A DNA stretch of 35,916 nucleotides from a virus: the IMG/VR virus record IMGVR_UViG_3300045988_120569, one strand, 5' to 3'. Numbering within the stretch: position 1 is the first letter of the stretch; the number at the start of each line of letters is the position of its first letter. Of the stretch, positions 8,047 through 25,972 are shown piece by piece. The notes below the pieces were generated by a model that was given only the letters and a program-made list of their open reading frames with translations, was not told where the DNA came from and did not search any database. A program made the translations under genes and the position numbers.

Positions 8047-8126
8047 AAAGAAATGAGCGAACTGGCTGACGGCTTGGTTTGCTTATGCACAATAATTATC
8101 TAACATTTAAAAAAAACATCAAGACA

Positions 8127-8513
8127 ATGGAAAAGAATTTAGAAGCATTTGGTATTAGAGTTGCTGACGCGGATTTTAAAGATGAGCGTAAGGACGCTGT
8201 GGAAAGTTTAAAGGATTGGCAGAGTAAGGATAAAAGTAGCCGCTGTTTCTTTATGCTTGCTGCTGAACAAAGTGACAGTGACAAAGATAATGTTGATATT
8301 ACGCATGCACGCGGAAATACAAGTATAAGGAGACTTGCTGGATTGCTCACGGCTGCTGCATTTGCTGACGAGGTGGTTGCTGCTGCTTTATTTCGAGCTA
8401 ATGAAAATGTTTTGAATGCTATTAAAGAGGAATTTCCCGAAGAATTTAAGGGATCGGACTTTCGGAGAGCGCAAAGCATTATTAAGAAATTAAACGAAGA
8501 ACGCAATGAGTAG
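8127..8513 (+). CDS. Hypothetical acidic protein
   Basis: ORF-track frame 8079-8513. ATG 8127 follows an A-rich leader. Confidence 0.5.
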   Translation: MEKNLEAFGIRVADADFKDERKDAVESLKDWQSKDKSSRCFFMLAAEQSDSDKDNVDITHARGNTSIRRLAGLLTAAAFADEVVAAALFRANENVLNAIKEEFPEEFKGSDFRRAQSIIKKLNEERNE

Positions 8514-8560
8514 AAAATGAGTAGAAATTATGATTGAATTGGGTTGATTATTTGAGTGTA

Positions 8561-8597
8561 CCCCGTGCAGTCCGTGAGGATAGCACGGGGCTTTTTT
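8561..8597 (+). terminator. Rho-independent terminator ending the early/replication block
   Basis: CCCCGTGC / GCACGGGG stem followed by CTTTTTT. Confidence 0.8.
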
Positions 8598-8690: not shown

Positions 8691-8882
8691 GTGACTACAT
8701 TGACTACATTTGACTACAATTTTATAATTATCTGATTATTAAGGAGTTACAAGAAACAAAAACGGGCAAAATCCTTACTACATTTGACTACAAGTGACTA
8801 CATTGTAGTAAAGGCTGACTACAATGTAGCAAGGTTGTAGTTGCGTAAGTTATTGATAATCAATGATGTAGTGTTGTAGTCA
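8691..8882. repeat. Iteron cluster: about 12 copies of TGACTACA in both orientations around an AT-rich core
   Basis: Direct copies at 8692, 8701, 8711, 8775 (TTACTACA), 8785, 8795 and 8816. Inverted TGTAGT(CA) copies at 8804, 8825, 8836, 8867 and 8875. AT-rich spacer 8719-8760. Confidence 0.8.
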
Positions 8883-11196: not shown

Positions 11197-11320
11197 TGCA
11201 GGGCGTTGGTGGGTGGGAAAGGTGTGACACCGCACATTTTTAGCCTTCGGCTCCTGCCGAGATGCGTAAAAATGGGAAGAGTGAAGAAACTTAGAGCGGA
11301 AAAACTGAAGTAAGGTTTTG

Positions 11321-11441
11321 GGGCGGTATTTGGGCGGTATTTGAGTGGTATCGGGATGGTATTGAGGTGGCATTGGGGTGACATTGGGGTGGTATCGGGG
11401 TGACATCGGGGTGGTATCGGGGTGGTTTAGGGATGGTTAAA
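11321..11441. repeat. Eleven tandem copies of an 11-bp G-rich unit (consensus GGGTGGTATYG)
   Basis: Units begin at 11321, 11332, 11343, 11354, 11365, 11376, 11387, 11398, 11409, 11420 and 11431. Confidence 0.85.
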
Positions 11442-11520
11442 AAAATGGGGAATGATGTGCGGTTTTGATGCCTTTTGGCTGAGAATTGAGTTTTTTTGTG
11501 GTGTGTTTTATGTGTGTGCA

Positions 11521-11559
11521 AGGTGTGTTTGAAAGGTGTGTTTGAAAGGTGTGTTTGCG
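11521..11559. repeat. Three tandem 13-bp repeats AGGTGTGTTTGAA upstream of the head operon
   Basis: 11521-11533, 11534-11546 and 11547-11559 (the last ends GCG). A related GGTGTGTTTTA lies at about 11500. Confidence 0.8.
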
Positions 11560-12807: not shown

Positions 12808-13782
12808 ATGGCAAATACGATTACTACTATTGGCGCATTACAGAAGAGCGCCACTAAGTATGAGAAAGACCTTTTGATTATGCCTGTAACCGCTGCTCAG
12901 GCAACTTTGCAGCACATGCAAGGCATTCCAGGGTTGAAGGGAAATCATGTGTTCGGTCAACTTGATGGCGATGCAGAACTTGGTCCTTACAAGAATACGC
13001 GTAAGGCAGATGGCGACTTTAAGATTGCTCCTCGCGAGCTTGAGTTGTTCTTGGGCAACTGCGCTTATGGTTTTGACCCCAACGAGGTGTGGGGAACAAT
13101 TTATGGTTCGCTTGTGACTCAAGGCGAAGGCTTGAAGGGAGTTGATGTAAACAAGAGTATCTTGATGCTTGTAGCGGGCAAATTGGGCCGTAAACTCAAT
13201 ATGGCTATTTGGAACGCTAAGCGCGATGCCGATGGCGACTCTACGAAAGACCTCTTTAATGGCTTCGACACCATTACCGACACTGAGAAGATCGCGGGTA
13301 AACTTGCGGTTGCTAAGGGCAACTATATGGAACTTGCCGAAGCTATTACCAGTGCAAACGCAGTGGACACTTTCAACTCAATCTTTGATGCTGCCAGTGA
13401 TGAGTTGAAGGAACAGCATGTGAAGATTTATTGCTCGAAAGAGTTGTACACGGCTTATAACCGCAACTACCAGATGTTGCATGGTGCTTTGCCCTATAAC
13501 AAGGAGTTTAAGAAGACCTTCCTTGATGGTAGCGATAACCTTTGGGAATTCTGCCCATTGGCTTCGAAGAAAGGTTCATCTTACATTCACGTTGCACCGC
13601 AGAGCAATATGGTATACGGCTATGGCGCAGGTGAGAATCCTGCTGAGAAGTTGGCGATCGAGAAGTATGACTCTTGGAAACTGACGCTTGAAGCTGCAAT
13701 GGCATTTGGCGTACAGTTTAAGACCCTTAGCTCTGAAATGCTGATGGTGGCAAAACTGAAGGCTGCTACTGCATCTGTGTGA
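12808..13782 (+). CDS. Major capsid protein candidate
   Basis: 324 aa, immediately after the protease/scaffold gene. Position and size only; no motif recognised. Confidence 0.55.
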   Translation: MANTITTIGALQKSATKYEKDLLIMPVTAAQATLQHMQGIPGLKGNHVFGQLDGDAELGPYKNTRKADGDFKIAPRELELFLGNCAYGFDPNEVWGTIYGSLVTQGEGLKGVDVNKSILMLVAGKLGRKLNMAIWNAKRDADGDSTKDLFNGFDTITDTEKIAGKLAVAKGNYMELAEAITSANAVDTFNSIFDAASDELKEQHVKIYCSKELYTAYNRNYQMLHGALPYNKEFKKTFLDGSDNLWEFCPLASKKGSSYIHVAPQSNMVYGYGAGENPAEKLAIEKYDSWKLTLEAAMAFGVQFKTLSSEMLMVAKLKAATASV

Positions 13783-13790
13783 GCGTAGAT

Positions 13791-13873
13791 GCGCGAACTC
13801 GCGGGTTAGCGCTTGAGAGTGAGGCTTGAGGCAATGGACTTGAGGGCGCGACCGCGCGGGTTAGTGCGTGAGA
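13791..13873. repeat. Intergenic repeat element (degenerate copy pair with the GCGCGACCGCGCG box)
   Basis: GCGCGAACTCGCGGGTTAGCGCTTGAG (13791-) and GCGCGACCGCGCGGGTTAGTGCGTGAG (13846-) are direct repeats. CTTGAGG recurs between them. Confidence 0.7.
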
Positions 13874-13921: not shown

Positions 13922-14524
13922 ATGGCAGATAATGCTGGTACTGCAGGCGCACAATGCGCTGCAGGCGCTCCTTATGATAGCTTGCGCTTTTGCCAAGGAC
14001 AACGTGTGATTCCTGGTATTAAGAATAAGTCTTACTATATTGCTAAGCGCGATATTGTGAAATGGCCTACCCTACCCGACCCTTCGGCTACAGGAACTAC
14101 GCTGAAGACGGCTGCGGTGTATGCAGGCGACTTTACGCTTGCTGCTGACAAGAAGTGGAAGAGCATAGACTTGGCTCTGAACAAAGGCAACTTGGAGTGG
14201 GAAACACAAGGTGAGCACCCATCGTGCACGGTTCTTAACAAGGTCACGCTTTCGTACCCAGGCACCACTGCAGAGGCTGCAGCCTTCTGTGGCATGGCAA
14301 TGAACGACGATTTGGTGTACTTGGTGCAGCAACGTGATGGTCAGTACCGCGTGTTGGGTAATGACATGTTTAACACCGTGACGAAACCCAAGGGTAGTAC
14401 GGGTGAAGGTGCAAGCACGAATGGTGGTACCGACTTGGAGATTGAGGTAACCGACCTCTACCCTGCTCCCTTCTATAGTGGTAAGATTGAGACGGATGAT
14501 GGTACCATTAACGAGACCATGTAA
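13922..14524 (+). CDS. Hypothetical virion protein
   Basis: ORF-track frame 13868-14524. The GTG start lies inside the repeat element, so ATG 13922 after an A-rich leader is preferred. TAATG overlap with the next gene. Confidence 0.55.
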   Translation: MADNAGTAGAQCAAGAPYDSLRFCQGQRVIPGIKNKSYYIAKRDIVKWPTLPDPSATGTTLKTAAVYAGDFTLAADKKWKSIDLALNKGNLEWETQGEHPSCTVLNKVTLSYPGTTAEAAAFCGMAMNDDLVYLVQQRDGQYRVLGNDMFNTVTKPKGSTGEGASTNGGTDLEIEVTDLYPAPFYSGKIETDDGTINETM

Positions 14525-15057
14525 TGATTGATAAGATTAAAGCTTATTTAGATACTCCCGCTGCCGAACGCGATGTGGCGGCGGGAGCATTGCTTTTGCT
14601 GCAGTTGAACCGCAACCGCATTCTTTATAATGGCGCTTGTATTGCTCCGCAACGTTATGCTCCTGTGATAGAGCATGAGTTGAAGAAACATTTGCGCATT
14701 TTGCTTGATGGGCTGACGGCTCAGGGCATTGTGGAGATGGAGCATGAAGTTGTGCCTGTGGCAGAAGAGAGTTTGGAAGAAGGTGCTCCTGTTGTGAGCA
14801 CAGATGTTGATCACCCTGAAGGAACCCACCGAGGCCGTAGAACCGACCATGAGAGTTTGCCAGCCGAGATCCAAGCGTTGTATGAGAAGAATGGGGAGAT
14901 TTACTTTAAGATGAAACAGACGTTTGAGACGCTGAAGACGCTTGAAGAGGCTGCTCCTTGTGACCGCTATGAACACTTGAAGGTGCTTAAGAGCTTAGAT
15001 GACCAGTATCGGAAGAACTGGAAGAAGTATGATGGGTTTGAGAGAAAGGAGAGCTAG
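14524..15057 (+). CDS. Hypothetical virion-module protein
   Basis: 177-aa ORF, translationally coupled. It ends in the first TAG of a TAG ladder. Confidence 0.55.
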   Translation: MIDKIKAYLDTPAAERDVAAGALLLLQLNRNRILYNGACIAPQRYAPVIEHELKKHLRILLDGLTAQGIVEMEHEVVPVAEESLEEGAPVVSTDVDHPEGTHRGRRTDHESLPAEIQALYEKNGEIYFKMKQTFETLKTLEEAAPCDRYEHLKVLKSLDDQYRKNWKKYDGFERKES

Positions 15058-15115
15058 AGGGGCTAGAGAGGCTAGAGGAGCTAGAGAGACTATGTGGGCT
15101 GGAAGGGCTGGAGGC
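15053..15115. repeat. 9-bp tandem array GCTAGAGGG/GCTAGAGAG/... (7 units)
   Basis: TAG at 15055, 15064, 15073 and 15082, all in the frame of the upstream gene. The units decay to GCTGGAAGG and GCTGGAGGC. Confidence 0.85.
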
Positions 15116-15139: not shown

Positions 15140-15733
15140 ATGAAGGCTGAATTTGTGGAGAGGGCACAACGGTATTTGCTTGCTTCGGTTGAGGAGATGC
15201 GGGAGGCAAAATTGGCTCCAGCTGTACAAGCGCGGATGTTGCGACTGCGCGAGTTGTATGCCTATTGGCTCCAGAACCCGCGGTTGGTGGATAAGGACAT
15301 TGTGGGTGAGCTGCAAAAGCGACATGGGATTGGCGTGTCGCAGGCTTATGAGGATGTTCGCATTATAAAGATATGCTTGGGCAACTTGGGACGCTTGACA
15401 CGCGATTATGACCGCTACCTATTTCGTTGTAGATGTGAGGAAGGGTGGCAGATGGCACGAGAGCAAGAAGATGCAAAGGCATTTGCTGCTGTTACTGCAA
15501 CCTACTTAAAAGGCACTCAGCTTGACAAGGAAGAACACAATGCTCCCGACTACTCAGTAATCGTTCCTCAGCACTTTACGATTAGCACCGACCCGAGTGT
15601 GGCAGGCTTTAGAGTTGTGCCAGGCATTTTGGAAAAGGCTAAGAAACTTGAGGCTCGCTATGTGCAAGAGGTTGAGGAGCAACTGATGGAAGAAGCAGAC
15701 AGTGAGCTTGAAGCCGAAAAAAATGAGAAATAA
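15140..15733 (+). CDS. Hypothetical protein with a possible HTH (HGIGVSQAYEDVR) and an acidic tail
   Basis: 197-aa ORF after an A-rich leader. Confidence 0.55.
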   Translation: MKAEFVERAQRYLLASVEEMREAKLAPAVQARMLRLRELYAYWLQNPRLVDKDIVGELQKRHGIGVSQAYEDVRIIKICLGNLGRLTRDYDRYLFRCRCEEGWQMAREQEDAKAFAAVTATYLKGTQLDKEEHNAPDYSVIVPQHFTISTDPSVAGFRVVPGILEKAKKLEARYVQEVEEQLMEEADSELEAEKNEK

Positions 15734-18551: not shown

Positions 18552-18947
18552 TCAGAATTGAACAGATTGCAAGTGATTAACCATTTGCCCAATGCCACTT
18601 TGAATAATAGAAAGTTGCTTGGGGGATGCGGTTGCAAGACCTTGTTTGTACTTTCTCATTAAAGATGGGTTGATGCCAACAAAGTTTGCAAATTGTGACA
18701 CGTTGATGAATGGGAATGCAGCGAAGAAAGCAGCAATATCATAAGTATATGAGATTTCTGCATTTTCCCATTCGGGAGATTTGCCATGTTTGCTGCGATA
18801 GTATTCCACTTGTTCGTTGTACACCTCGAGAAAATTAGCTTTAGCTTCTTCTTCGGTTAAGCCGTAGCCAAGTAACCCTGGCATTTCTCGAACGCAGATG
18901 GCAAAACCTCCATCTTGTCCACGCTCAATAACTGCATTAAGTTTCAT
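18552..18947 (-). CDS. hicB: HicB-family antitoxin with a C-terminal HTH
   Basis: N-terminus MKLNAVIERGQDGGFAICVREMPGLLGYGLTEEEA is typical of HicB. The C-terminus VSQFANFVGINPSLMRKYKQG is HTH-like. Confidence 0.75.
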   Translation of the reverse strand: MKLNAVIERGQDGGFAICVREMPGLLGYGLTEEEAKANFLEVYNEQVEYYRSKHGKSPEWENAEISYTYDIAAFFAAFPFINVSQFANFVGINPSLMRKYKQGLATASPKQLSIIQSGIGQMVNHLQSVQF

Positions 18948-19028
18948 GCTTTGTGTGGTTTAAATGGTTTAAAAATCGTTCTAATAACCGCTCCACTTTA
19001 ATGTGGAGCGGAGAACTAAAAAAGTTCT

Positions 19029-19226
19029 TTACTTTTTAGGTTGTTTGAGTCCTGCTGCCTTTAAAATGGCATTTAGTGTTCCTGTAGGAACCTCTGCAGA
19101 ACTATGCCTGCCGACTGGTATGAAAAAATCGAAATCGGGATGAACATATTTTGTATGCCGTTTCCCTTTTGATTTAATCCATCCATTGGATTCTAACAAC
19201 CTATACAACTCTGAAAATTTTACCAT
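19029..19226 (-). CDS. hicA: HicA-family mRNA interferase toxin
   Basis: MVKFSELYRLLESNGW...GKRHTKYVHP...IPVGRHSSAEVPTGTLNAILKAAGL matches the HicA pattern. It lies upstream of hicB, as in hicAB operons. The track start at 19259 is further upstream. Confidence 0.75.
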   Translation of the reverse strand: MVKFSELYRLLESNGWIKSKGKRHTKYVHPDFDFFIPVGRHSSAEVPTGTLNAILKAAGLKQPKK

Positions 19227-19270
19227 AGTTATATATAAAGTATTATTAGAACACTGCAAAGGTAACGAAA

Positions 19271-19738
19271 ATGTTCCAAAAATACAAGAGTTTTACAAGA
19301 AAAATTTTAAAGATTATGGCAACTTTATATCCTGAGAAAGTGAAGTTTATTATTGTGCATTGCTCGGCTACGGCTGAGGGAAAGGATTTTTGCGCTAAGG
19401 ACATCGACCGATGGCACCGTGCTAAGGGATGGGACGGTATTGGGTATCACTATGTGGTGAAACTTGATGGTACCGTGGAGAAAGGACGCAATGAAACTAA
19501 GGTGGGCGCACACTGCGCTGGCGTGAACAGCTTGAGCATTGGGGTGTGCTATATTGGGGGACTTGCTGCGGACGGACGCACGCCTAAGGACACACGAACT
19601 GTGGCACAAAAGGCTGCGCTGGTGGCACTTGTGAAACGGTTGAAGAAGAAGTATCCAAGAGTTCGAGTGGTGGGACACCATTACTTTAATAAGGGGAAGG
19701 CTTGCCCTTGCTTTGAGGCGGAGAAGGAGTTTAACTAG
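19271..19738 (+). CDS. N-acetylmuramoyl-L-alanine amidase (Amidase_2/PGRP-type endolysin)
   Basis: IIVHCSAT...DIDRWHRAKGWDGIGYHYVV...GAHCAGVNSLSIGVCYIGG...GHHYFNKGKACPCF. An alternative ATG start is at 19316. Confidence 0.85.
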   Translation: MFQKYKSFTRKILKIMATLYPEKVKFIIVHCSATAEGKDFCAKDIDRWHRAKGWDGIGYHYVVKLDGTVEKGRNETKVGAHCAGVNSLSIGVCYIGGLAADGRTPKDTRTVAQKAALVALVKRLKKKYPRVRVVGHHYFNKGKACPCFEAEKEFN

Positions 19739-19777
19739 AGGAGCTAGAGGGGCTAGAGGGGCTAGATGGACTAGAGG
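19734..19777. repeat. 9-bp tandem array ACTAGAGGA/GCTAGAGGG... (5 units)
   Basis: TAG at 19736 (the amidase stop), 19745, 19754, 19763 and 19772, all in the amidase frame. An in-frame TGA follows at 19784. Confidence 0.85.
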
Positions 19778-19814
19778 ACTACTTGAATGGTAACTTGGAA
19801 AAAAAGTGAATGGT

Positions 19815-20249: not shown

Positions 20250-21332
20250 ATGAATGCAACGCTGAAGGGTGTGTGGCGCTATTGGATGTTTCCATCGGAA
20301 CTGAATGTGGTGGAGGTGGAACTTGCGCTTAATCAGGGGGAGGTGGTGAAGGCTGTGACGGTGGAGTTGAAGCTTGGTGACAAGACGCTGCTGAACGTTT
20401 CGCTGACGCCTACTGATGGTGTGGTTAGGCTGGATAACCTTATGCCTTTGCTTCGGGACGCCACGACAGATGCCATGGATGGGGTTGCTCCGCAAACGCT
20501 TACGCTGAAAGTGGGAGACAATACGTGTGGCAGTTGTAAGCTTGTGCCTTGCCGTGTGCGTTTGGCACGCGCTACGGCTGAGGATGTGGTGCGGAAGTCG
20601 TTTTTGAACTTTACGGGACGCGAGGTGAAGCTTTTGCCACCTGATGCCCGGGAGGTGTTGTATTGGTACTTGACAGATGATTGGAGCGCAGGGACCCAGG
20701 CTTGTGTGGATGCTTGCTGGTGGAACGCTGCTACTAAGGAAGTGAGAGCAAAGCAACAGTTGCTGGAAGTGGAGACTACGGAGAGTGGCGGACTGCTGAA
20801 GGTGGATGTTTCGCCTAAGGTGCTTGAGGCTCCTGCTGATGGAGAATGGAGCCTGGTGAGCTACTCGGTGCGCGTGAATGCGAGAGTGATGCGCTACAGA
20901 ATGGTGCAGCAAGGACGGAACTTGGCTCCTGTGACGGGGGTACGGTATAGGAATGCTTTGGGGGTGGATGATTCGTTCTACTTTTTTGGATCGGTGGAAG
21001 AGAAGTTGAAACCTACTTATAGTGCAGCTCGGATTGGGGGTGTGACTCGGAATTACTTGATTACGGCTCAGGCTGAATGGGAAGCAAACACGGGACACAT
21101 GACGCTCGCCATGGAACGATTGCTAAGAGACTTGGCTGTGGCGCGAAGGGCTTGGCTGATGGATGATGACGAGGAGATTGTGTTGACGGGGTGTGATGTA
21201 AAACAGAGTAATGAATGGTGCGTGGCTCCTGTGGCGACCGTGAGCTGGCGTGAGGCTGGAGACGGTGCGAGACTTGCAAGCCCAGTTGGCGTGAGGACGT
21301 TTGACGGGAGCTTTGACGAGGCGTTCTTTTAG
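20250..21332 (+). CDS. Hypothetical structural protein
   Basis: 360-aa ORF ending in the first TAG of a ladder. Confidence 0.55.
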   Translation: MNATLKGVWRYWMFPSELNVVEVELALNQGEVVKAVTVELKLGDKTLLNVSLTPTDGVVRLDNLMPLLRDATTDAMDGVAPQTLTLKVGDNTCGSCKLVPCRVRLARATAEDVVRKSFLNFTGREVKLLPPDAREVLYWYLTDDWSAGTQACVDACWWNAATKEVRAKQQLLEVETTESGGLLKVDVSPKVLEAPADGEWSLVSYSVRVNARVMRYRMVQQGRNLAPVTGVRYRNALGVDDSFYFFGSVEEKLKPTYSAARIGGVTRNYLITAQAEWEANTGHMTLAMERLLRDLAVARRAWLMDDDEEIVLTGCDVKQSNEWCVAPVATVSWREAGDGARLASPVGVRTFDGSFDEAFF

Positions 21333-21402
21333 GAGAAGTAGATTAACTAGAGGAGCTAGAGGGGATAGAAGGTGGGCGCGACCGCGCGGGGCTGGCGCTT
21401 GA
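21330..21402. repeat. TAG ladder plus GCGCGACCGCGCG (21376-21388) plus GGCGCTTGA (21394-21402) composite element
   Basis: In-frame TAG at 21330, 21339, 21348, 21357 and 21366. The boxes were read directly. Confidence 0.85.
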
Positions 21403-21452
21403 AAAATGGAAAAGACAAGAAAAACGAAATAAATAAAAGGAGGGTTGAGAGG

Positions 21453-22793
21453 ATGACAACTTCGGAGATATTTGACATACCGCAGACGCCGTTTCAGGCG
21501 GTGATGCAGGAGGTGGCGGACACTACTGCGGTGTTTGACTCGCCTAGTGGACGGTTGCTTGTGAGACCTGTGCCTGGGTTTGAGCATGAACTGTATGTGC
21601 CTTATGGCGATGACAACCAACTGCCCTATGAACTGATTGCGTTGGTGGGGGGAGACGAAGTGACGGCACAGAATAAACTGTTTAATGTGCTGACTTGCTA
21701 TGGGGCAGGACTGCGCATGGTGGATGCTGCATCGGGCGAGGTGACGCAAAACGCGGACGTGAAACGGTGGATGCGTAGGCAGTTTATGCCCAGATATATG
21801 CTTGACCAAATGACGGACATGAAATATTTTTACTACTCGGTGTGTGTGATTATCTTGAATCGTGAGGGTACACGCATTAACCGTTTGGTGCATAAGGAGG
21901 CTTGCTACTGCCGATTGGAGCAAGCTGATAAGCGTGGACGCATTGGGCATGTGTATTATGCGAATTGGCAGGACTACCAAGAAACGCTGTCGGGTGTGGA
22001 AAGGATTGAGTTGTTGGATCCTGACGACCCTTATGGGGATTTGTGCCAACGTATGGGGATTGACCCTGACACGCACGAGCCGAATGGGAGACCTAAACAG
22101 CGGTGCAGAAAGTTTGCGATGCTGATGCGTTTCCCGACGGCTGGGTGCCAATATTACCCCGTTCCTTACTGGAGTGCGGTGTTGCGAGGTGGATCGTATG
22201 ACGAGAAGCGTTTGATTTCGACTGGTAAGCGTGCGAAGCTTAGAAACACGACGAGTGTGAAGTATCAGGTGGAGATTGAGCGTTCGTATTGGCAACGTAT
22301 TTGCACTGAGGAGAACATTACGGACCCTGTGGAGATGCAGGAACGTGTGAAGCGCGAGAAGGAGAACATTAAGAACTTTGTGTGCGGTGTGGAGAACTCG
22401 GGCAAGGCTTGGATTAGTGGCTACTATGTGAACCCTGATGGGCACGAGGTGCGCGATATTCGCGTGACGAATATTGAGGGACAGAAGGAAGGTGGCGACT
22501 GGAACGAGGATGTGCAGGCTGCTGCGAACACGATTTGCTATGCTGACAATGTGCACCCTAACCTTGTGGGTGCTGTGCCTGGTAAGACGCAGACGAATAA
22601 CTCGGGGTCGGATAAGCGAGAGTTGTTCACGATGAAGCAGGCTTTGGAGATTGCTTTTCATGATATGCTGCTTGTACCCTTGCATGTGGTGTGCTGGTTT
22701 AATGGGTGGACGGATGTGGTGCCACAGATACCGATGATTCAGCTGACTACGCTGGATAAGCACAGGGATGCTGAAGTAATAAGTAATAAGTAA
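21453..22793 (+). CDS. Portal protein candidate
   Basis: About 446 aa, with a conserved-looking core (YYPVPYWSAVL..., NNSGSDKRELF). The call rests on size and context. The track start at 21372 (GTG) runs through the repeat element, so ATG 21453 is preferred. Confidence 0.45.
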   Translation: MTTSEIFDIPQTPFQAVMQEVADTTAVFDSPSGRLLVRPVPGFEHELYVPYGDDNQLPYELIALVGGDEVTAQNKLFNVLTCYGAGLRMVDAASGEVTQNADVKRWMRRQFMPRYMLDQMTDMKYFYYSVCVIILNREGTRINRLVHKEACYCRLEQADKRGRIGHVYYANWQDYQETLSGVERIELLDPDDPYGDLCQRMGIDPDTHEPNGRPKQRCRKFAMLMRFPTAGCQYYPVPYWSAVLRGGSYDEKRLISTGKRAKLRNTTSVKYQVEIERSYWQRICTEENITDPVEMQERVKREKENIKNFVCGVENSGKAWISGYYVNPDGHEVRDIRVTNIEGQKEGGDWNEDVQAAANTICYADNVHPNLVGAVPGKTQTNNSGSDKRELFTMKQALEIAFHDMLLVPLHVVCWFNGWTDVVPQIPMIQLTTLDKHRDAEVISNK

Positions 22794-22809
22794 GAAGTAA
22801 TAAGTAATA
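22775..22809. repeat. Five tandem heptamers AGTAATA (one is AGTAAGA) spanning the portal stop
   Basis: AGTAATAAGTAATAAGTAAGAAGTAATAAGTAATA. TAA occurs in all three + frames. Confidence 0.8.
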
Positions 22810-22828: not shown

Positions 22829-22902
22829 GATAGAGGAGCTAGAAGGACTAGAGGGGATAGAGGGGATAGAGAGGCGCGACCGCGCGAGGGGGTGGCGCTT
22901 GA
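22829..22902. repeat. 9-bp array (GATAGAGGA, GCTAGAAGG, ACTAGAGGG, GATAGAGGG, GATAGAGAG) plus GCGCGACCGCGCG (22874-22886) plus GGCGCTTGA (22894-22902)
   Basis: Read directly. TAG at 22831, 22840, 22849, 22858 and 22867, not in the portal frame. Confidence 0.85.
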
Positions 22903-22953
22903 AAATGGAGAAAACGACCGAAAGGAACGAAATAAATAAAAGAAAGAGAGACT

Positions 22954-25054: not shown

Positions 25055-25290
25055 AGATGCGTAAGATTTGCTTAAAGGATGCGCTGCGACTGCTTGAGGA
25101 TAAGGAGGCGCATGACTTGAAGGTGTGGAAGTTGAGCACGGGGGACATTTTGCACTATAAAGGGGCAGTGTGTGTGGGTGGCTGGAACCGCGGTGGCACG
25201 CATAGGGTGAGGCTGCCTCAGAGTGCGCTGATTAGGGAGTTTCGGGATGTGACGTTGTTTGAGGTGGATGGTATGGAGGTGTATTGGTGA
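25045..25290 (+). CDS. Hypothetical small protein
   Basis: 81-aa ORF, translationally coupled. Confidence 0.5.
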   Translation: MVMKMRKICLKDALRLLEDKEAHDLKVWKLSTGDILHYKGAVCVGGWNRGGTHRVRLPQSALIREFRDVTLFEVDGMEVYW

Positions 25291-25310: not shown

Positions 25311-25400
25311 GCTAGAGGAGCTAGAGGGACTAGAGGGGCTAGAAGGGCTGGCGCTTGAGGAGATAGAAGGAGGGCGCGACCGCGCGGGGCTGGCGCTTGA
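25311..25400. repeat. 9-bp CTAGAGG array (4 units) plus two GGCGCTTGA boxes (25350-25358, 25392-25400) flanking GCGCGACCGCGCG (25374-25386)
   Basis: Read directly. TAG at 25313, 25322, 25331 and 25340. Confidence 0.85.
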
Positions 25401-25459
25401 GGGAATATAGAAAGGGCTGGCGCGATGGATGGTTTAAAAAAAGAAAATGATTGGGAGTG

Positions 25460-25891
25460 ATGGGGAATGAACGGAGCAAGGATTCGGAGCTTTACTTGAA
25501 GGCTTGGCGAATGAAGATGGTGCAGATTTGGCAGGACCGATTGGACTTGCTTGGGGTGCATGATACGGGGGCTTTGAGACGGAGCGTGAAGGCTGGTGAA
25601 CTGAACTTGCGCGACGCGGAGGCGGATATGGCTTTTAAGTTTTTGGAGTATGGCATTTATGTGGACTTGGGCGTTGGTAATGGGTACCGGCATGGGAATG
25701 GTGGTGACTTGGCGTTTTTGGGCAAGGCGTATAGGGCTGAACATCATTTGGGTAAGGCTCGTGAACGTAAGCCGTGGTTTAACAAGTCGTGGTACATCTC
25801 GGTGGAGGTGCTGAAGAATAGACTTGCAGAGATTTTGGGGGATGACTTTGCGGGGGCATTTGACTCGCTGACGGATAAGGAAAGGGGGTGA
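25460..25891 (+). CDS. Hypothetical virion-module protein
   Basis: The track start at 25451 is TTG; the ATG is at 25460. 143 aa. Confidence 0.5.
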   Translation: MGNERSKDSELYLKAWRMKMVQIWQDRLDLLGVHDTGALRRSVKAGELNLRDAEADMAFKFLEYGIYVDLGVGNGYRHGNGGDLAFLGKAYRAEHHLGKARERKPWFNKSWYISVEVLKNRLAEILGDDFAGAFDSLTDKERG

Positions 25892-25907
25892 AGAACTCCC
25901 TTTTTTT
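25883..25907 (+). terminator. Rho-independent terminator overlapping the stop codon
   Basis: AGGGGG (25883-25888) pairs with CTCCCT (25896-25901), followed by T7. Confidence 0.6.
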
Positions 25908-25972
25908 GTTCTTTTTTGGAGTTAACGGTGTTACTTTTGGGGAAAAGGTTTGGATGATTGGGAGGGAAGGAG

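What the first reader, a model, noticed from the sequence alone, without database searches (positions are those of the whole stretch)
15053..15115. Ladders of 4-5 in-frame TAG stop codons at exact 9-nt spacing terminate three late genes
Seen: the stop codon of gene 14524-15057 is the first of four TAGs at 15055, 15064, 15073 and 15082. The amidase stop is the first of five at 19736, 19745, 19754, 19763 and 19772. The stop of 20250-21332 is the first of five at 21330, 21339, 21348, 21357 and 21366.

In every case the TAGs are in the frame of the upstream gene and exactly three codons apart (TAG-AGG-NGC units of a CTAGAGGNG tandem repeat). At 21330-21347 the first two units (TAGGAGAAG, TAGATTAAC) do not match the repeat consensus yet keep the in-frame TAG. 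This hints that the stop itself is what is conserved.

Established: some gut Bacteroidota phages (crAss-like, Lak) reassign TAG and carry suppressor tRNAs. CTAG is generally avoided in bacterial genomes. Tandem short boxes can be cooperative operator arrays (for example met boxes).

Inference: either fail-safe termination against amber suppression or read-through, or a tandem protein-binding array that happens to start at the stop codon. I know of no description of such TAG ladders.
Basis: partly seen in the sequence, partly recalled or inferred. Interest (0 to 1): 0.7.

Follow-up and report, generated by a model that had tools for sequence, protein, structure and literature searches.

The report
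Variable TAGA repeat arrays between phage genes
The "ladders of stop codons" are real, but they are a side effect of 9-base tandem repeats (core TAGA) that fill five gaps between late genes of a gut Prevotella-type prophage; relatives show the reading-frame phase is not conserved, so they are not back-up stops, and their real role is unknown.

Summary
All 14 reported TAGs are at the stated positions, 9 nt apart and in frame. Both are detached from the upstream stop and out of frame.

The window is a temperate Bacteroidales (Prevotella-type) siphophage. All five arrays lie inside one long late operon, on the coding strand.

In about 25 related contigs the arrays sit at the same five junctions:
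- Copy number ranges from 3 to 19.
- The core (C)TAGA is almost invariant, while the other four positions vary.
- 8- or 10-nt steps, or separate TAA/TGA stops, put many ladders out of frame. Of 59 distinct contexts, 30 are fully in frame and 24 at most half.

TAG is an ordinary stop elsewhere in the phage, and no suppressor tRNA was found. The in-frame ladder follows automatically from a TAG-containing unit, a period of 3x3, and how ORFs are called.

Sister lineages (portal 64-78% identical) lack CTAG. They carry different 8-9-nt arrays at the same junctions, often as hairpin arms. Most other relatives have no arrays.

My best reading is a lineage-specific junction element whose selected TAGA core is a multivalent recognition site. 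A function-less slippage satellite remains a serious rival. Fail-safe termination is not supported.

The parts
15054..15115 (+). Array 1. Four CTAGA units (TAG at 15055/64/73/82), then decayed units CTATGTGGG, CTGGAAGGG, CTGGAGGC. The first TAG is the stop of ORF 14524-15057. The next gene starts at 15140.
   Evidence: 4-11 copies at the same place in relatives
19735..19780 (+). Array 2. Five units. The first TAG is the stop of the amidase gene 19271-19738. The next gene starts at about 19815.
   Evidence: 4-19 copies in relatives, out of frame in group B
21330..21371 (+). Array 3. Units TAGGAGAAG, GTAGATTAA, then CTAGAGGAG, CTAGAGGGG, ATAGAAGGT. The first TAG is the stop of ORF 20250-21332. 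The array lies upstream of the portal gene (21453-22793).
   Evidence: in group B the stop is TAA and the array has 6-11 copies, in frame
22830..22872 (+). Five (A/C)TAGA units starting 40 nt after the portal stop TAA 22791-22793; out of frame.
25312..25349 (+). Four CTAGA units starting 25 nt after TGA 25288-25290; out of frame. Followed by CTGGCGCTTGAGGAG and ATAGAAGGA relic units.
21372..21405 (+). GC box GGGCGCGACCGCGCGGGGCTGGCGCTTGAAAA following array 3. Predicted small hairpin GGGCGC...GCGCUU. Part of a roughly 90-nt junction cassette shared with sites 4, 5 and the post-capsid junction.
22871..22906 (+). GC box copy following array 4.
25370..25402 (+). GC box copy following array 5.
13789..13872 (+). 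Same cassette after the putative capsid gene 12808-13782, identified only by its position after the protease gene (no family match). Two GC boxes pair into a long hairpin, and the units here read CTTGAG rather than CTAGAG.
   Evidence: (-43 kcal/mol, z -5)
22774..22809 (+). 7-nt repeat AAGTAAT x5 spanning the portal stop codon, giving TAA in all three frames. A second, unrelated stop-containing repeat at a gene end.

Best explanation
**What it is.** The ladders are five copies of one lineage-specific junction element in the late operon of a temperate Bacteroidales siphophage. Each is a hypervariable head-to-tail array of 9-nt units, (C)TAGA-N-R-R-R, always on the transcribed strand. It fills the untranslated gap that begins at or just after the upstream stop codon. 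At three junctions it is followed by a conserved GC-rich box.

**Why the TAGs are in frame.** This is a by-product of three things: the unit contains TAG, the period is 3x3, and an ORF that enters an array in the TAG frame is ended by it.

**What is actually conserved.** Only the TAGA core, the strand and the junction position are conserved. Copy number and phase are not.

**Inferred mechanism.** I infer that the array is a multivalent recognition site: many identical short sites, read cooperatively by a phage or host factor. That factor would set processing, stability or translation of the flanking cistrons.

I lean slightly towards action on the transcript (repeated UAGA, as ring or filament RNA-binding proteins read repeated (U/G)AG). 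Action on the DNA is treated as rival 1.

**Shown here:** anatomy, distribution, variability, core constraint and loss of phase.

**Inferred only:** that there is a binding factor, and the level at which it acts.
For: **Same arrays at the same five junctions.** They recur in about 25 related contigs that differ by 15-20% in DNA sequence, with 3-19 copies, all on the + strand.

**Core constraint.**
- 251 of about 300 steps between successive TAGA are exactly 9 nt.
- Only about 7 of 260 internal units carry a substitution in TAGA.
- Position 6 takes all four bases, and positions 7-9 vary among purines.
- A-to-G decay (CTGGA, CTGGC) is seen only at the 3' edges.

**Rarity of the motif elsewhere.** CTAG is nearly absent from the rest of the phage (6 sites against about 127 expected for the whole window) and from relatives (0-13 per 17 kb). 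The arrays are therefore a highly distinctive signal.

**Position inside an operon.** No host-type promoter (TTTG...TAnnTTTG) and no strong terminator lies on the + strand between about 9 kb and the terminator at 25873-25911. The arrays are therefore internal to one transcript.

**Asymmetric motif.** T never occurs before the C, and TCTAG occurs 0 times in the window.

**Positional homology with sequence turnover.** Sister lineages have other 8-9-nt arrays at the same junctions: AAGTTGAA/TTCAACTT, AAGGTTAA, AAGTTTAAT, CATTTGCA, AATCGAAWG. Each unit recurs at many junctions of its own genome, often as arms of -49 to -60 kcal/mol hairpins.

**A different motif for the evident DNA operators.** GACTACA occurs 7 times, all within 8693-8881 and on both strands.

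**Precedents.** TRAP reads 11 (G/U)AG repeats (PMC3064811), and HutP reads XAG-rich sites (PMC2425495).
Against: - No binding protein was identified. Pfam and PHROG scans of about 40 ORFs found no TRAP-, HutP- or RHH-like protein.
- All genes near the arrays are on one strand, so co-orientation with transcription cannot separate RNA from DNA action.
- Arrays end 35-100 nt before the next start codon, so they do not occlude it. They show no significant RNA structure or alternative hairpins (z about -1).
- A copy number of 3-19 is odd for a ring protein with a fixed number of subunits.
- Arrays are absent from most related phages: 70 of 80 portal-related loci have none. They are therefore dispensable for the basic life cycle.
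- L153 has four different unit families, which would need four factors.
- Part of the apparent TAGA invariance comes from how I defined units.
Confidence: 0.4

Rival explanations
1. Function-less, slippage-prone satellite. Tandem duplications that span or follow a stop codon are neutral, because nothing downstream is translated. They therefore accumulate and expand in the post-stop gap, and a junction cassette carrying them has been copied or gene-converted to several junctions. TAGA would persist through recent expansion and concerted evolution rather than through function.
For: - Extreme copy-number polymorphism among near-identical genomes, and 18- and 27-nt higher-order duplications.
- Arrays are present in only three lineages and absent from 70 of 80 portal-related loci, including close ones.
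- Junctions 3, 4, 5 and the post-capsid junction share one alignable cassette of about 90 nt.
- Other stop-spanning duplications occur in the same genome: AAGTAAT x5 at the portal stop, and AATGAGTAGAA x2 at the stop of 8079-8513.
- L153 carries four unit families.
- Decay is seen at the 3' edges.
Against: - Concerted evolution should homogenise whole units. Instead positions 6-9 are diverse within every array while TAGA is almost invariant.
- The same core is kept at five loci across two sub-lineages that differ by 15-20% in DNA.
- The core holds despite an evident A-to-G pressure that has converted edge units.
- CTAG is otherwise strongly avoided in this genome.
Confidence: 0.3
2. DNA-level operator or roadblock arrays. 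A small phage DNA-binding protein would coat the direct repeats on double-stranded DNA and silence or pause transcription through the late operon in the lysogen. Candidates are a ribbon-helix-helix-type protein binding contiguous short repeats, or a stoperator-type repressor.
For: - The phage is temperate: integrase at 256-1548, a CI-like repressor at 1863-2279, a Xis-like HTH at 2649-2846, and a tmRNA 3' end at 1-29.
- Spacing is strict at 9 bp.
- The asymmetric sites sit in one orientation in short intergenic gaps next to stop codons, as described for stoperators (PMC9283540).
- Contiguous 7-bp repeats are bound by an RHH protein in pSM19035, which needs at least 4 contiguous repeats (PMC9499535).
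- From memory only: Arc operator half-sites contain TAGA, and MetJ binds tandem 8-bp boxes.
Against: - There is no CTAG or TAGA array anywhere in the early or immunity region (1-9 kb), where a repressor's primary operators should be.
- The visible operator-like cluster uses GACTACA.
- No RHH domain was found.
- HicB, the one candidate family that often carries an RHH domain, is absent from group B, which still has arrays.
- Stoperators are single 13-bp sites, not arrays.
- Sister-lineage elements at the same junctions are hairpins, which points to single-stranded nucleic acid.
Confidence: 0.2
3. Fail-safe termination. Repeated in-frame UAGs would catch ribosomes that read through the first UAG, for example under amber suppression by co-infecting recoded phages.
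For: - In the window, three arrays start with the genuine stop and are fully in frame.
- Site 3 is in frame in both sub-lineages, 13 of 14 contexts.
- Among 48 intergenic arrays of the wider family, 20 of 23 that start within 10 nt of a stop contain a stop triplet, against 14 of 25 farther away.
Against: - Phase is lost at sites 1 and 2 in group B, and at sites 4 and 5 in the window's own lineage. 24 of 59 contexts are at most half in frame.
- Up to 19 copies far exceeds any back-up need.
- The conserved A after TAG and the C before it are not explained.
- TAG stops without ladders are used at five other genes.
- No suppressor tRNA was found.
- 8-nt periods occur in sister lineages.
- The excess of stop triplets near gene ends is an ascertainment effect of ORF calling.
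- Bacteria show no selection for additional in-frame stops (PMC6764699).
Confidence: 0.04
4. Self-pairing RNA or single-stranded-DNA structure. Because CUAG is its own complement, a direct array can fold back on itself into a ladder of 4-bp helices. This would be the C-poor-strand equivalent of the array-built hairpins of sister lineages (a processing site or stabiliser).
For: - Predicted folds of arrays 1 and 2 are exactly such nested CUAG:CUAG helices.
- Sister lineages have long hairpins built from inverted arrays at the same junctions.
- Other lineages also use palindromic cores such as TCGA, TGCA and GTTAAC.
Against: - Folding energy is not better than shuffles (z -1.3 and -1.1).
- 8% of units have A or G instead of C, which breaks the palindrome, while the non-palindromic A after TAG is invariant.
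- The 5x5 purine internal loops are destabilising.
Confidence: 0.05

Closest known systems
Tandem or additional in-frame stop codons (ASCs) as read-through back-ups
   Same: Several stop codons lie in the frame of, and shortly after, the real stop in three genes of this window.
   Different: - ASCs are single codons at +1 to +3, not 4-19-unit repeats with a conserved flanking C and A.
- Phase is not conserved in relatives here.
- Bacteria show no selection for ASCs (PMC6764699); the documented conservation is in yeasts (PMC1088959).
Stoperators of cluster A mycobacteriophages (L5-type repressor sites)
   Same: Asymmetric short sites sit in short intergenic gaps of a temperate phage. They are oriented with transcription, occur many times per genome, and often lie at stop codons (PMC9283540).
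   Different: - Stoperators are single 13-mers bound by a monomeric repressor, and the same motif is the operator at the early promoter.
- Here the sites are tandem 9-mers, at only five junctions, with no copy in the early region.
- No binding was tested here.
Start-associated sequences (SAS/ESAS) of cluster K mycobacteriophages
   Same: A lineage-specific, asymmetric, one-orientation intergenic repeat of unknown function. Its consensus GGGATAGGAGCCC contains a TAG that can be the upstream gene's stop, and it is sometimes paired with inverted repeats (PMC3203893).
   Different: - SAS is a single 13-mer 3-7 bp before the start codon, in the non-structural half of the genome.
- Here the arrays are anchored at the stop, lie 35-100 nt before the next start, and are in the structural operon.
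TRAP and HutP RNA targets (repeated (U/G)AG triplets)
   Same: Evenly spaced UAG-containing repeats in a transcript, read by multi-subunit proteins (PMC3064811, PMC2425495).
   Different: - The spacer is 6 nt instead of 2-4.
- Copy number is not fixed.
- There is no adjacent terminator/antiterminator or overlapped start site.
- No homologous protein was found.
- The host phylum is different.
Contiguous short-repeat operators or centromeres of ribbon-helix-helix proteins (omega/ParB of pSM19035 heptads; MetJ met boxes)
   Same: Contiguous head-to-tail short repeats with a 4-5-bp conserved core and a variable copy number of at least 4 (PMC9499535).
   Different: - The period is 9 rather than 7-8 bp.
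- Only one orientation is used.
- The arrays are not at promoters.
- No RHH gene was detected.
Bacterial VNTRs / minisatellites
   Same: Head-to-tail short units, strong copy-number polymorphism between near-identical genomes, and higher-order duplications.
   Different: The same unit occurs at five positionally conserved junctions, with a near-invariant core beside freely varying positions. This is not expected of a neutral VNTR.

Membership tests
Fail-safe tandem stop codons | Additional stops are in the reading frame of the upstream gene, and this phase is conserved among relatives | tested here: not met
   30 of 59 distinct contexts are fully in frame and 24 are at most half in frame. Site 2 in group B is out of frame in 8 of 8 contexts; sites 4 and 5 in group A are out of frame.
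Fail-safe tandem stop codons | A read-through or suppression context (suppressor tRNA, reassigned TAG) | tested here: not met
   No tRNA in the window or in 16 related loci. The two tRNA-like elements found at a relaxed threshold do not read as a CUA anticodon. TAG ends 8 of 35 genes normally.
Fail-safe tandem stop codons | Back-up stops lie within a few codons of the primary stop | tested here: inconclusive
   True for arrays 1-3 of the window. Arrays 4 and 5 start 40 and 25 nt downstream.
Stoperator-type repressor sites | Asymmetric site in one orientation relative to transcription, in short intergenic spaces | tested here: met
   All arrays are on the + strand, and T never precedes the C. 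All arrays are intergenic.
Stoperator-type repressor sites | The same motif serves as operator at the early lytic promoter | tested here: not met
   There is no CTAG between 1 and 10475, and no TAGA array outside the five junctions.
Stoperator-type repressor sites | Bound by the immunity repressor, blocking elongation | not testable with these tools
   A CI-like protein is encoded at 1863-2279, but binding cannot be tested in silico.
RHH contiguous-repeat operators (omega, MetJ) | A cognate ribbon-helix-helix protein encoded by the element | tested here: not met
   Pfam and PHROG scans of about 40 ORFs found no RHH family. Small ORFs without any hit remain.
RHH contiguous-repeat operators (omega, MetJ) | At least 4 contiguous short repeats with a conserved core | tested here: met
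   3-19 contiguous 9-bp units with a TAGA core.
TRAP/HutP-type RNA targets | Evenly spaced (U/G)AG triplets in the transcript | tested here: met
   UAG occurs every 9 nt on the coding strand, inside an operon.
TRAP/HutP-type RNA targets | The repeats overlap a terminator/antiterminator or a ribosome-binding region | tested here: not met
   Arrays end 35-100 nt before the next start. Fold z-scores are about -1, and no competing hairpins are seen.
TRAP/HutP-type RNA targets | A TRAP or HutP homologue is present | tested here: not met
   No such family appears in the phage ORFs scanned. The host genome was not examined.
VNTR / minisatellite | Head-to-tail repeats with copy-number polymorphism among close relatives | tested here: met
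   For example, site 2 has 5, 6, 7 and 9 copies in near-identical group-A genomes and 4-19 in group B.
Start-associated sequences (SAS) | Located 3-7 bp upstream of the start codon of the downstream gene | tested here: not met
   The distance from the last unit to the next start is 35-100 nt.
MITE/REPIN-like mobile intergenic repeats | Terminal inverted repeats and target-site duplication | tested here: not met
   No inverted partner exists: TCTAG occurs 0 times on the + strand and no inverted repeats were found. Sister-lineage elements do have inverted arms.

The most novel reading that the evidence does not exclude
A group of Bacteroidales temperate siphophages uses stop-anchored, lineage-specific 8-9-nt repeat arrays as a previously undescribed kind of operon punctuation. 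Examples of the units are TAGA here, and AGTT/AACT, GGTTA, TTTGCA and ATCGA in sister lineages. Each lineage's core would be read by its own, still unknown, cooperative RNA- or DNA-binding factor to tune expression across the long late transcript. Copy number would be hypervariable enough to generate expression diversity within a phage population.
Probability: 0.3. Interest if true: 0.7.

Novelty: new variant of a known kind. Interest (0 to 1): 0.45.

Why it matters
If the arrays are functional, they would be a new cis-regulatory device for polycistronic late operons in phages of Bacteroidota. These hosts do not use Shine-Dalgarno initiation, and their phage gene regulation is almost unstudied. 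The arrays would also point to an unidentified factor that reads repeated TAGA.

If they are not functional, they document how neutral post-stop duplications can mimic designed stop-codon ladders. That is a useful caution for sequence-only scans, and for claims about stop-codon reassignment in gut phages.

Either way, the arrays are a convenient hypervariable marker for strain-tracking this prophage lineage in gut metagenomes.

Tried and rejected
- **Known RNA families.** Rfam on the whole window, and more permissively on 3950-4900, gave nothing at the arrays.
- **Close isolated phages.** Megablast of 21 kb against GenBank phages found no match. The best portal hit by tblastn is 27% identical.
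- **RNA structure of the arrays.** Not better than shuffles.
- **Arrays as mosaic or recombination breakpoints.** Identity blocks between the window and five relatives do not break at the arrays.
- **Promoters at the arrays.** There is neither a sigma-70-like nor a Bacteroidetes -33/-7 pattern next to them.
- **Suppressor tRNAs.** None found.
- **Collagen-like or other coding reading of the arrays.** Rejected by inspecting the unit variants; this was not run as a separate test. The other two frames give L-E/D-G/E and R-G/W/R-A/T without a consistent Gly. No upstream ORF ever reads through an array.
- **A ribosome relay of AUG-X-UAG mini-ORFs.** Seen in group-B site 2 units (CTAGATGGG), but only 36% of units have T at position 6, and group A has none.
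- **HicB as the binder.** HicAB is absent from group B, which still has arrays.
- **IMG/VR scan for CTAGA(N4)x4.** It returned mostly unrelated coding 3-residue repeats and giant-virus TCTAGA repeats, so it was not informative.
- **Literature search.** No description of such arrays in Prevotella or Bacteroides phages was found.
Full report
**1. The observation**

All 14 TAGs are at the stated coordinates, exactly 9 nt apart. Each first TAG is the stop of the upstream ORF: 14524-15057, 19271-19738 and 20250-21332. Tandem Repeats Finder reports all three as period-9 arrays.

The motif is far above chance:
- CTAGAGG occurs 12 times against 2.65 expected. No shuffle reaches 12, and all 12 are on the + strand.
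- CTAG as a whole is strongly avoided in the window, at 23 against about 127 expected from base composition. Seventeen of the 23 lie in the five arrays.

The two missed arrays start 40 and 25 nt after the upstream stops (TAA 22791, TGA 25288). They are out of frame with those genes.

**2. What the window is**

It comes from human-gut metagenomes. Contigs carrying it have been binned with Prevotella, Alloprevotella and other Bacteroidales MAGs, and a portal homologue sits in the complete genome of Pseudoprevotella muciniphila.

It encodes:
- a tyrosine integrase next to a weak match to the 3' end of tmRNA;
- a CI-like repressor and a Xis-like HTH protein;
- a primase-helicase, large terminase, ClpP-type prohead protease and an amidase;
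- a portal and a tape-measure protein;
- a HicAB pair.

It is therefore a temperate siphophage. Nearly all genes are on the + strand, which has an unusually strong G-over-C skew of +0.2 to +0.45.

On the + strand, Bacteroidetes-type promoter motifs and strong terminators are found only outside roughly 9.0-25.9 kb. All five arrays are therefore internal to one long late transcript.

TAG is an ordinary stop for 8 of 35 genes, five of them without a ladder. No tRNA is predicted in the window or in 16 related loci. Two tRNA-like elements found only at a relaxed threshold do not read as amber suppressors.

**3. Relatives**

I gathered about 25 related contigs. They fall into two sub-lineages:
- group A, which is window-like;
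- group B, which is about 80-85% identical in DNA.

All of them carry arrays at the same five junctions, always on the + strand.

Copy number ranges from 3 to 19. It differs even between near-identical genomes. Site 2, for example, has 5, 6, 7 and 9 copies in group A and 4-19 in group B.

Across 246 units from 56 distinct arrays, the consensus is C(92%)-T-A-G-A-N-G/t-G/a-R. Position 6 takes all four bases, and T never occurs at position 9.

Of about 300 steps between successive TAGA, 251 are exactly 9 nt. Only about 7 of 260 internal units have a substitution in TAGA (CTGGA, CTATA, CTAGG). Part of this invariance reflects my TAGA-based definition of a unit. The count of 18-nt steps is the unbiased part of that estimate.

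Decayed units (CTGGA, CTGGC, CTTGA, CTATG) are concentrated at the 3' edges.

**4. The phase test**

| Site | Group A | Group B |
|---|---|---|
| 1 | in frame | first step is 10 nt in three relatives and after the second unit in a fourth, so the ladder leaves the frame |
| 2 | in frame | gene ends in TAA, a TAG follows directly, the next step is 8 nt, and the remaining 3-18 units are out of frame in all eight distinct contexts |
| 4 | detached, out of frame | anchored and mostly in frame in four relatives; detached in two |
| 5 | out of frame | out of frame, except one sub-array |

Overall, 30 of 59 distinct contexts are fully in frame and 24 are at most half in frame. That is about five of ten site-by-lineage states, which cannot be told from one in three.

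No upstream ORF ever reads through an array. This gives the simple explanation for the ladders:
- A unit that contains TAG ends any ORF that enters in that frame.
- A period of 9 then keeps all later TAGs in frame.
- Arrays in another phase are tolerated only if a separate stop precedes them, which is what is seen.

Published analysis also finds no selection for additional in-frame stops in bacteria (PMC6764699).

**5. The wider family**

Eighty contigs with portal homologues of 53-98% identity show that the TAGA arrays are confined to the close clade. All others have 0-13 CTAG per 17 kb and no such arrays.

Two sister lineages have different 8- or 9-nt arrays at the same junctions, each unit recurring at many junctions of its own genome:

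| Lineage | Portal identity | Units |
|---|---|---|
| L151 | 78% | AAGTTGAA / TTCAACTT |
| L153 | 78% | GAGTTAAC, AAGGTTAA, AAGTTTAAT, CATTTGCA |
| L157/L158 | 64% | AATCGAAWG / CGCTTCAAC |

[quoted passage not shown] Arrays often come as inverted pairs that fold into hairpins of -49 to -60 kcal/mol.

In a systematic count, only 10 of 80 loci, from three lineages, have intergenic arrays of this kind:
- Twenty-three of 48 arrays start within 10 nt of a stop, against about 16 expected.
- Twenty of those 23 contain a stop triplet, against 14 of 25 farther away.

These numbers are not independent, and they carry the same ORF-calling bias.

The array-bearing TAGA clade also differs from its nearest sister in strand skew, +0.3 against -0.13 to -0.27.

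**6. Anatomy around the arrays**

At sites 3, 4 and 5, and after the putative capsid gene (12808-13782, placed only by position), the arrays or their CTTGAG relics are followed by a conserved GC box, GGCGCGACCGCGCGGGGCTGGCGCTTGA. There are four exact cores. Together with an A-rich leader, this forms one alignable cassette of about 90 nt.

The box folds into a small hairpin. After the capsid gene, two boxes pair into a strong one (-43 kcal/mol, z -5).

The arrays themselves have no significant structure (z about -1). They end 35-100 nt before the next start codon.

Group B lacks the box at site 3 but keeps the array.

The phage's obvious operator-like cluster uses a different motif. GACTACA occurs seven times, all within 8693-8881 and on both strands.

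**7. Interpretation**

*Secure.* The ladders are tandem-repeat arrays, and the in-frame property is a by-product. What is conserved is the TAGA core, the strand and the junction.

*Inferred.* The contrast between a near-invariant core and freely varying neighbours is kept at five loci over 15-20% sequence divergence, in a genome that otherwise avoids CTAG. This argues for selection on the core, and hence for a multivalent recognition site.

I lean slightly to action on the transcript, for four reasons:
- the arrays lie inside an operon;
- the motif is asymmetric;
- the arrays are anchored to the end of translation;
- sister-lineage elements at the same junctions are hairpins.

TRAP and HutP are precedents for reading repeated (U/G)AG (PMC3064811, PMC2425495).

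Action on DNA is a serious rival, in the manner of stoperators (PMC9283540) or RHH proteins on contiguous repeats (PMC9499535). No binder was identified at either level.

A neutral, slippage-driven satellite carried by a duplicated junction cassette is the other serious rival. It best explains the patchy distribution, the extreme copy-number variation, and the several unit families in L153.

The closest published analogue in spirit is the start-associated sequence of cluster K mycobacteriophages. That is an oriented intergenic repeat of unknown function whose consensus also contains a TAG that can serve as the upstream stop (PMC3203893). It is, however, a single 13-mer next to the start codon.

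**8. Verdict**

| Aspect | Verdict |
|---|---|
| Observation | confirmed and extended |
| Fail-safe termination | not supported |
| Binding-array alternative | plausible but untested |
| Novelty | a new variant of a known kind (short tandem-repeat or iteron-like arrays), of moderate interest |

The lineage-specific, stop-anchored arrays across a phage family are the part worth following up.

Noticed in passing
window 1-29 and 256-1548: The first 29 bases match the 3' end of tmRNA (weak, 13.7 bits) next to a tyrosine integrase. The window probably starts at a prophage end integrated in ssrA.
   Followed up: partly
window 4490-4585 and 4665-4753: Two tRNA-like elements with canonical GGTTCGA(C/G)TCC T-arms and long variable arms sit in the 900-nt non-coding stretch before the primase gene. 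ARAGORN finds them only at a relaxed threshold, reading Ser/Phe? and Pro(GGG), not CUA. Rfam finds only a weak tRNA-like (mascRNA) match.
   Followed up: partly
window 8693-8881: All seven GACTACA sites of the window cluster here (six +, one -). The cluster lies between a terminator (8571-8589) and a Bacteroidetes-type -7 box (TATATTTG, 8973) upstream of the packaging genes. It looks like the operator or control region of the late operon, or an origin.
   Followed up: partly
window 11320-11557 (and L023 5100-5700): The 470-nt gap between terminase and protease genes holds an 11-nt array (GGGGTGGTATC x10.7) and a 13-nt array (x3.6). In a relative the same gap holds several other 11-nt arrays. 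The period, close to the helical repeat, suggests a DNA-level site (pac or origin?).
   Followed up: no
window 13789-13872, 21372-21405, 22871-22906, 25370-25402: The GC box GGCGCGACCGCGCG occurs four times, always after a late gene. After the capsid gene, two boxes form a strong hairpin (-43 kcal/mol, z -5). Four junctions share one cassette of about 90 nt.
   Followed up: partly
window 22774-22809 and 8505-8527: Other stop-spanning duplications occur. AAGTAAT x5 over the portal stop gives TAA in all three frames and encodes the last residues of the portal. AATGAGTAGAA x2 lies over the TAG stop of 8079-8513.
   Followed up: partly
whole window; L151-L153: GC skew is very strong (+0.2 to +0.45) along the whole phage. 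The nearest sister lineage (portal 78% identical) has the opposite skew (-0.13 to -0.27). This is a large compositional flip between related phages.
   Followed up: no
whole window: Short palindromes are strongly avoided: CCGG 4 against 90 expected, GGCC 16 against 90, GATC 33 against 127, and CTAG only 6 outside the arrays. This is consistent with restriction avoidance.
   Followed up: no
window 18552-19259 (- strand): A HicA toxin / HicB-like pair is the only clearly minus-strand module. It is absent from group-B relatives such as L023, so it is an accessory insertion.
   Followed up: partly
L151 4376-4539; L153 1801-1901, 5648-5744, 7819-7975; L157 7850-7954 and 9363-9442: Sister lineages carry their own 8-9-nt arrays at homologous junctions, often as inverted pairs forming long hairpins. 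Several cores are 4-6-bp palindromes (TCGA, TGCA, GTTAAC).
   Followed up: partly
window 32951-33247, 33664-33972, 35303-35545: Three paralogous small DUF5053 genes lie at the right end of the window, separated by long non-coding gaps.
   Followed up: no
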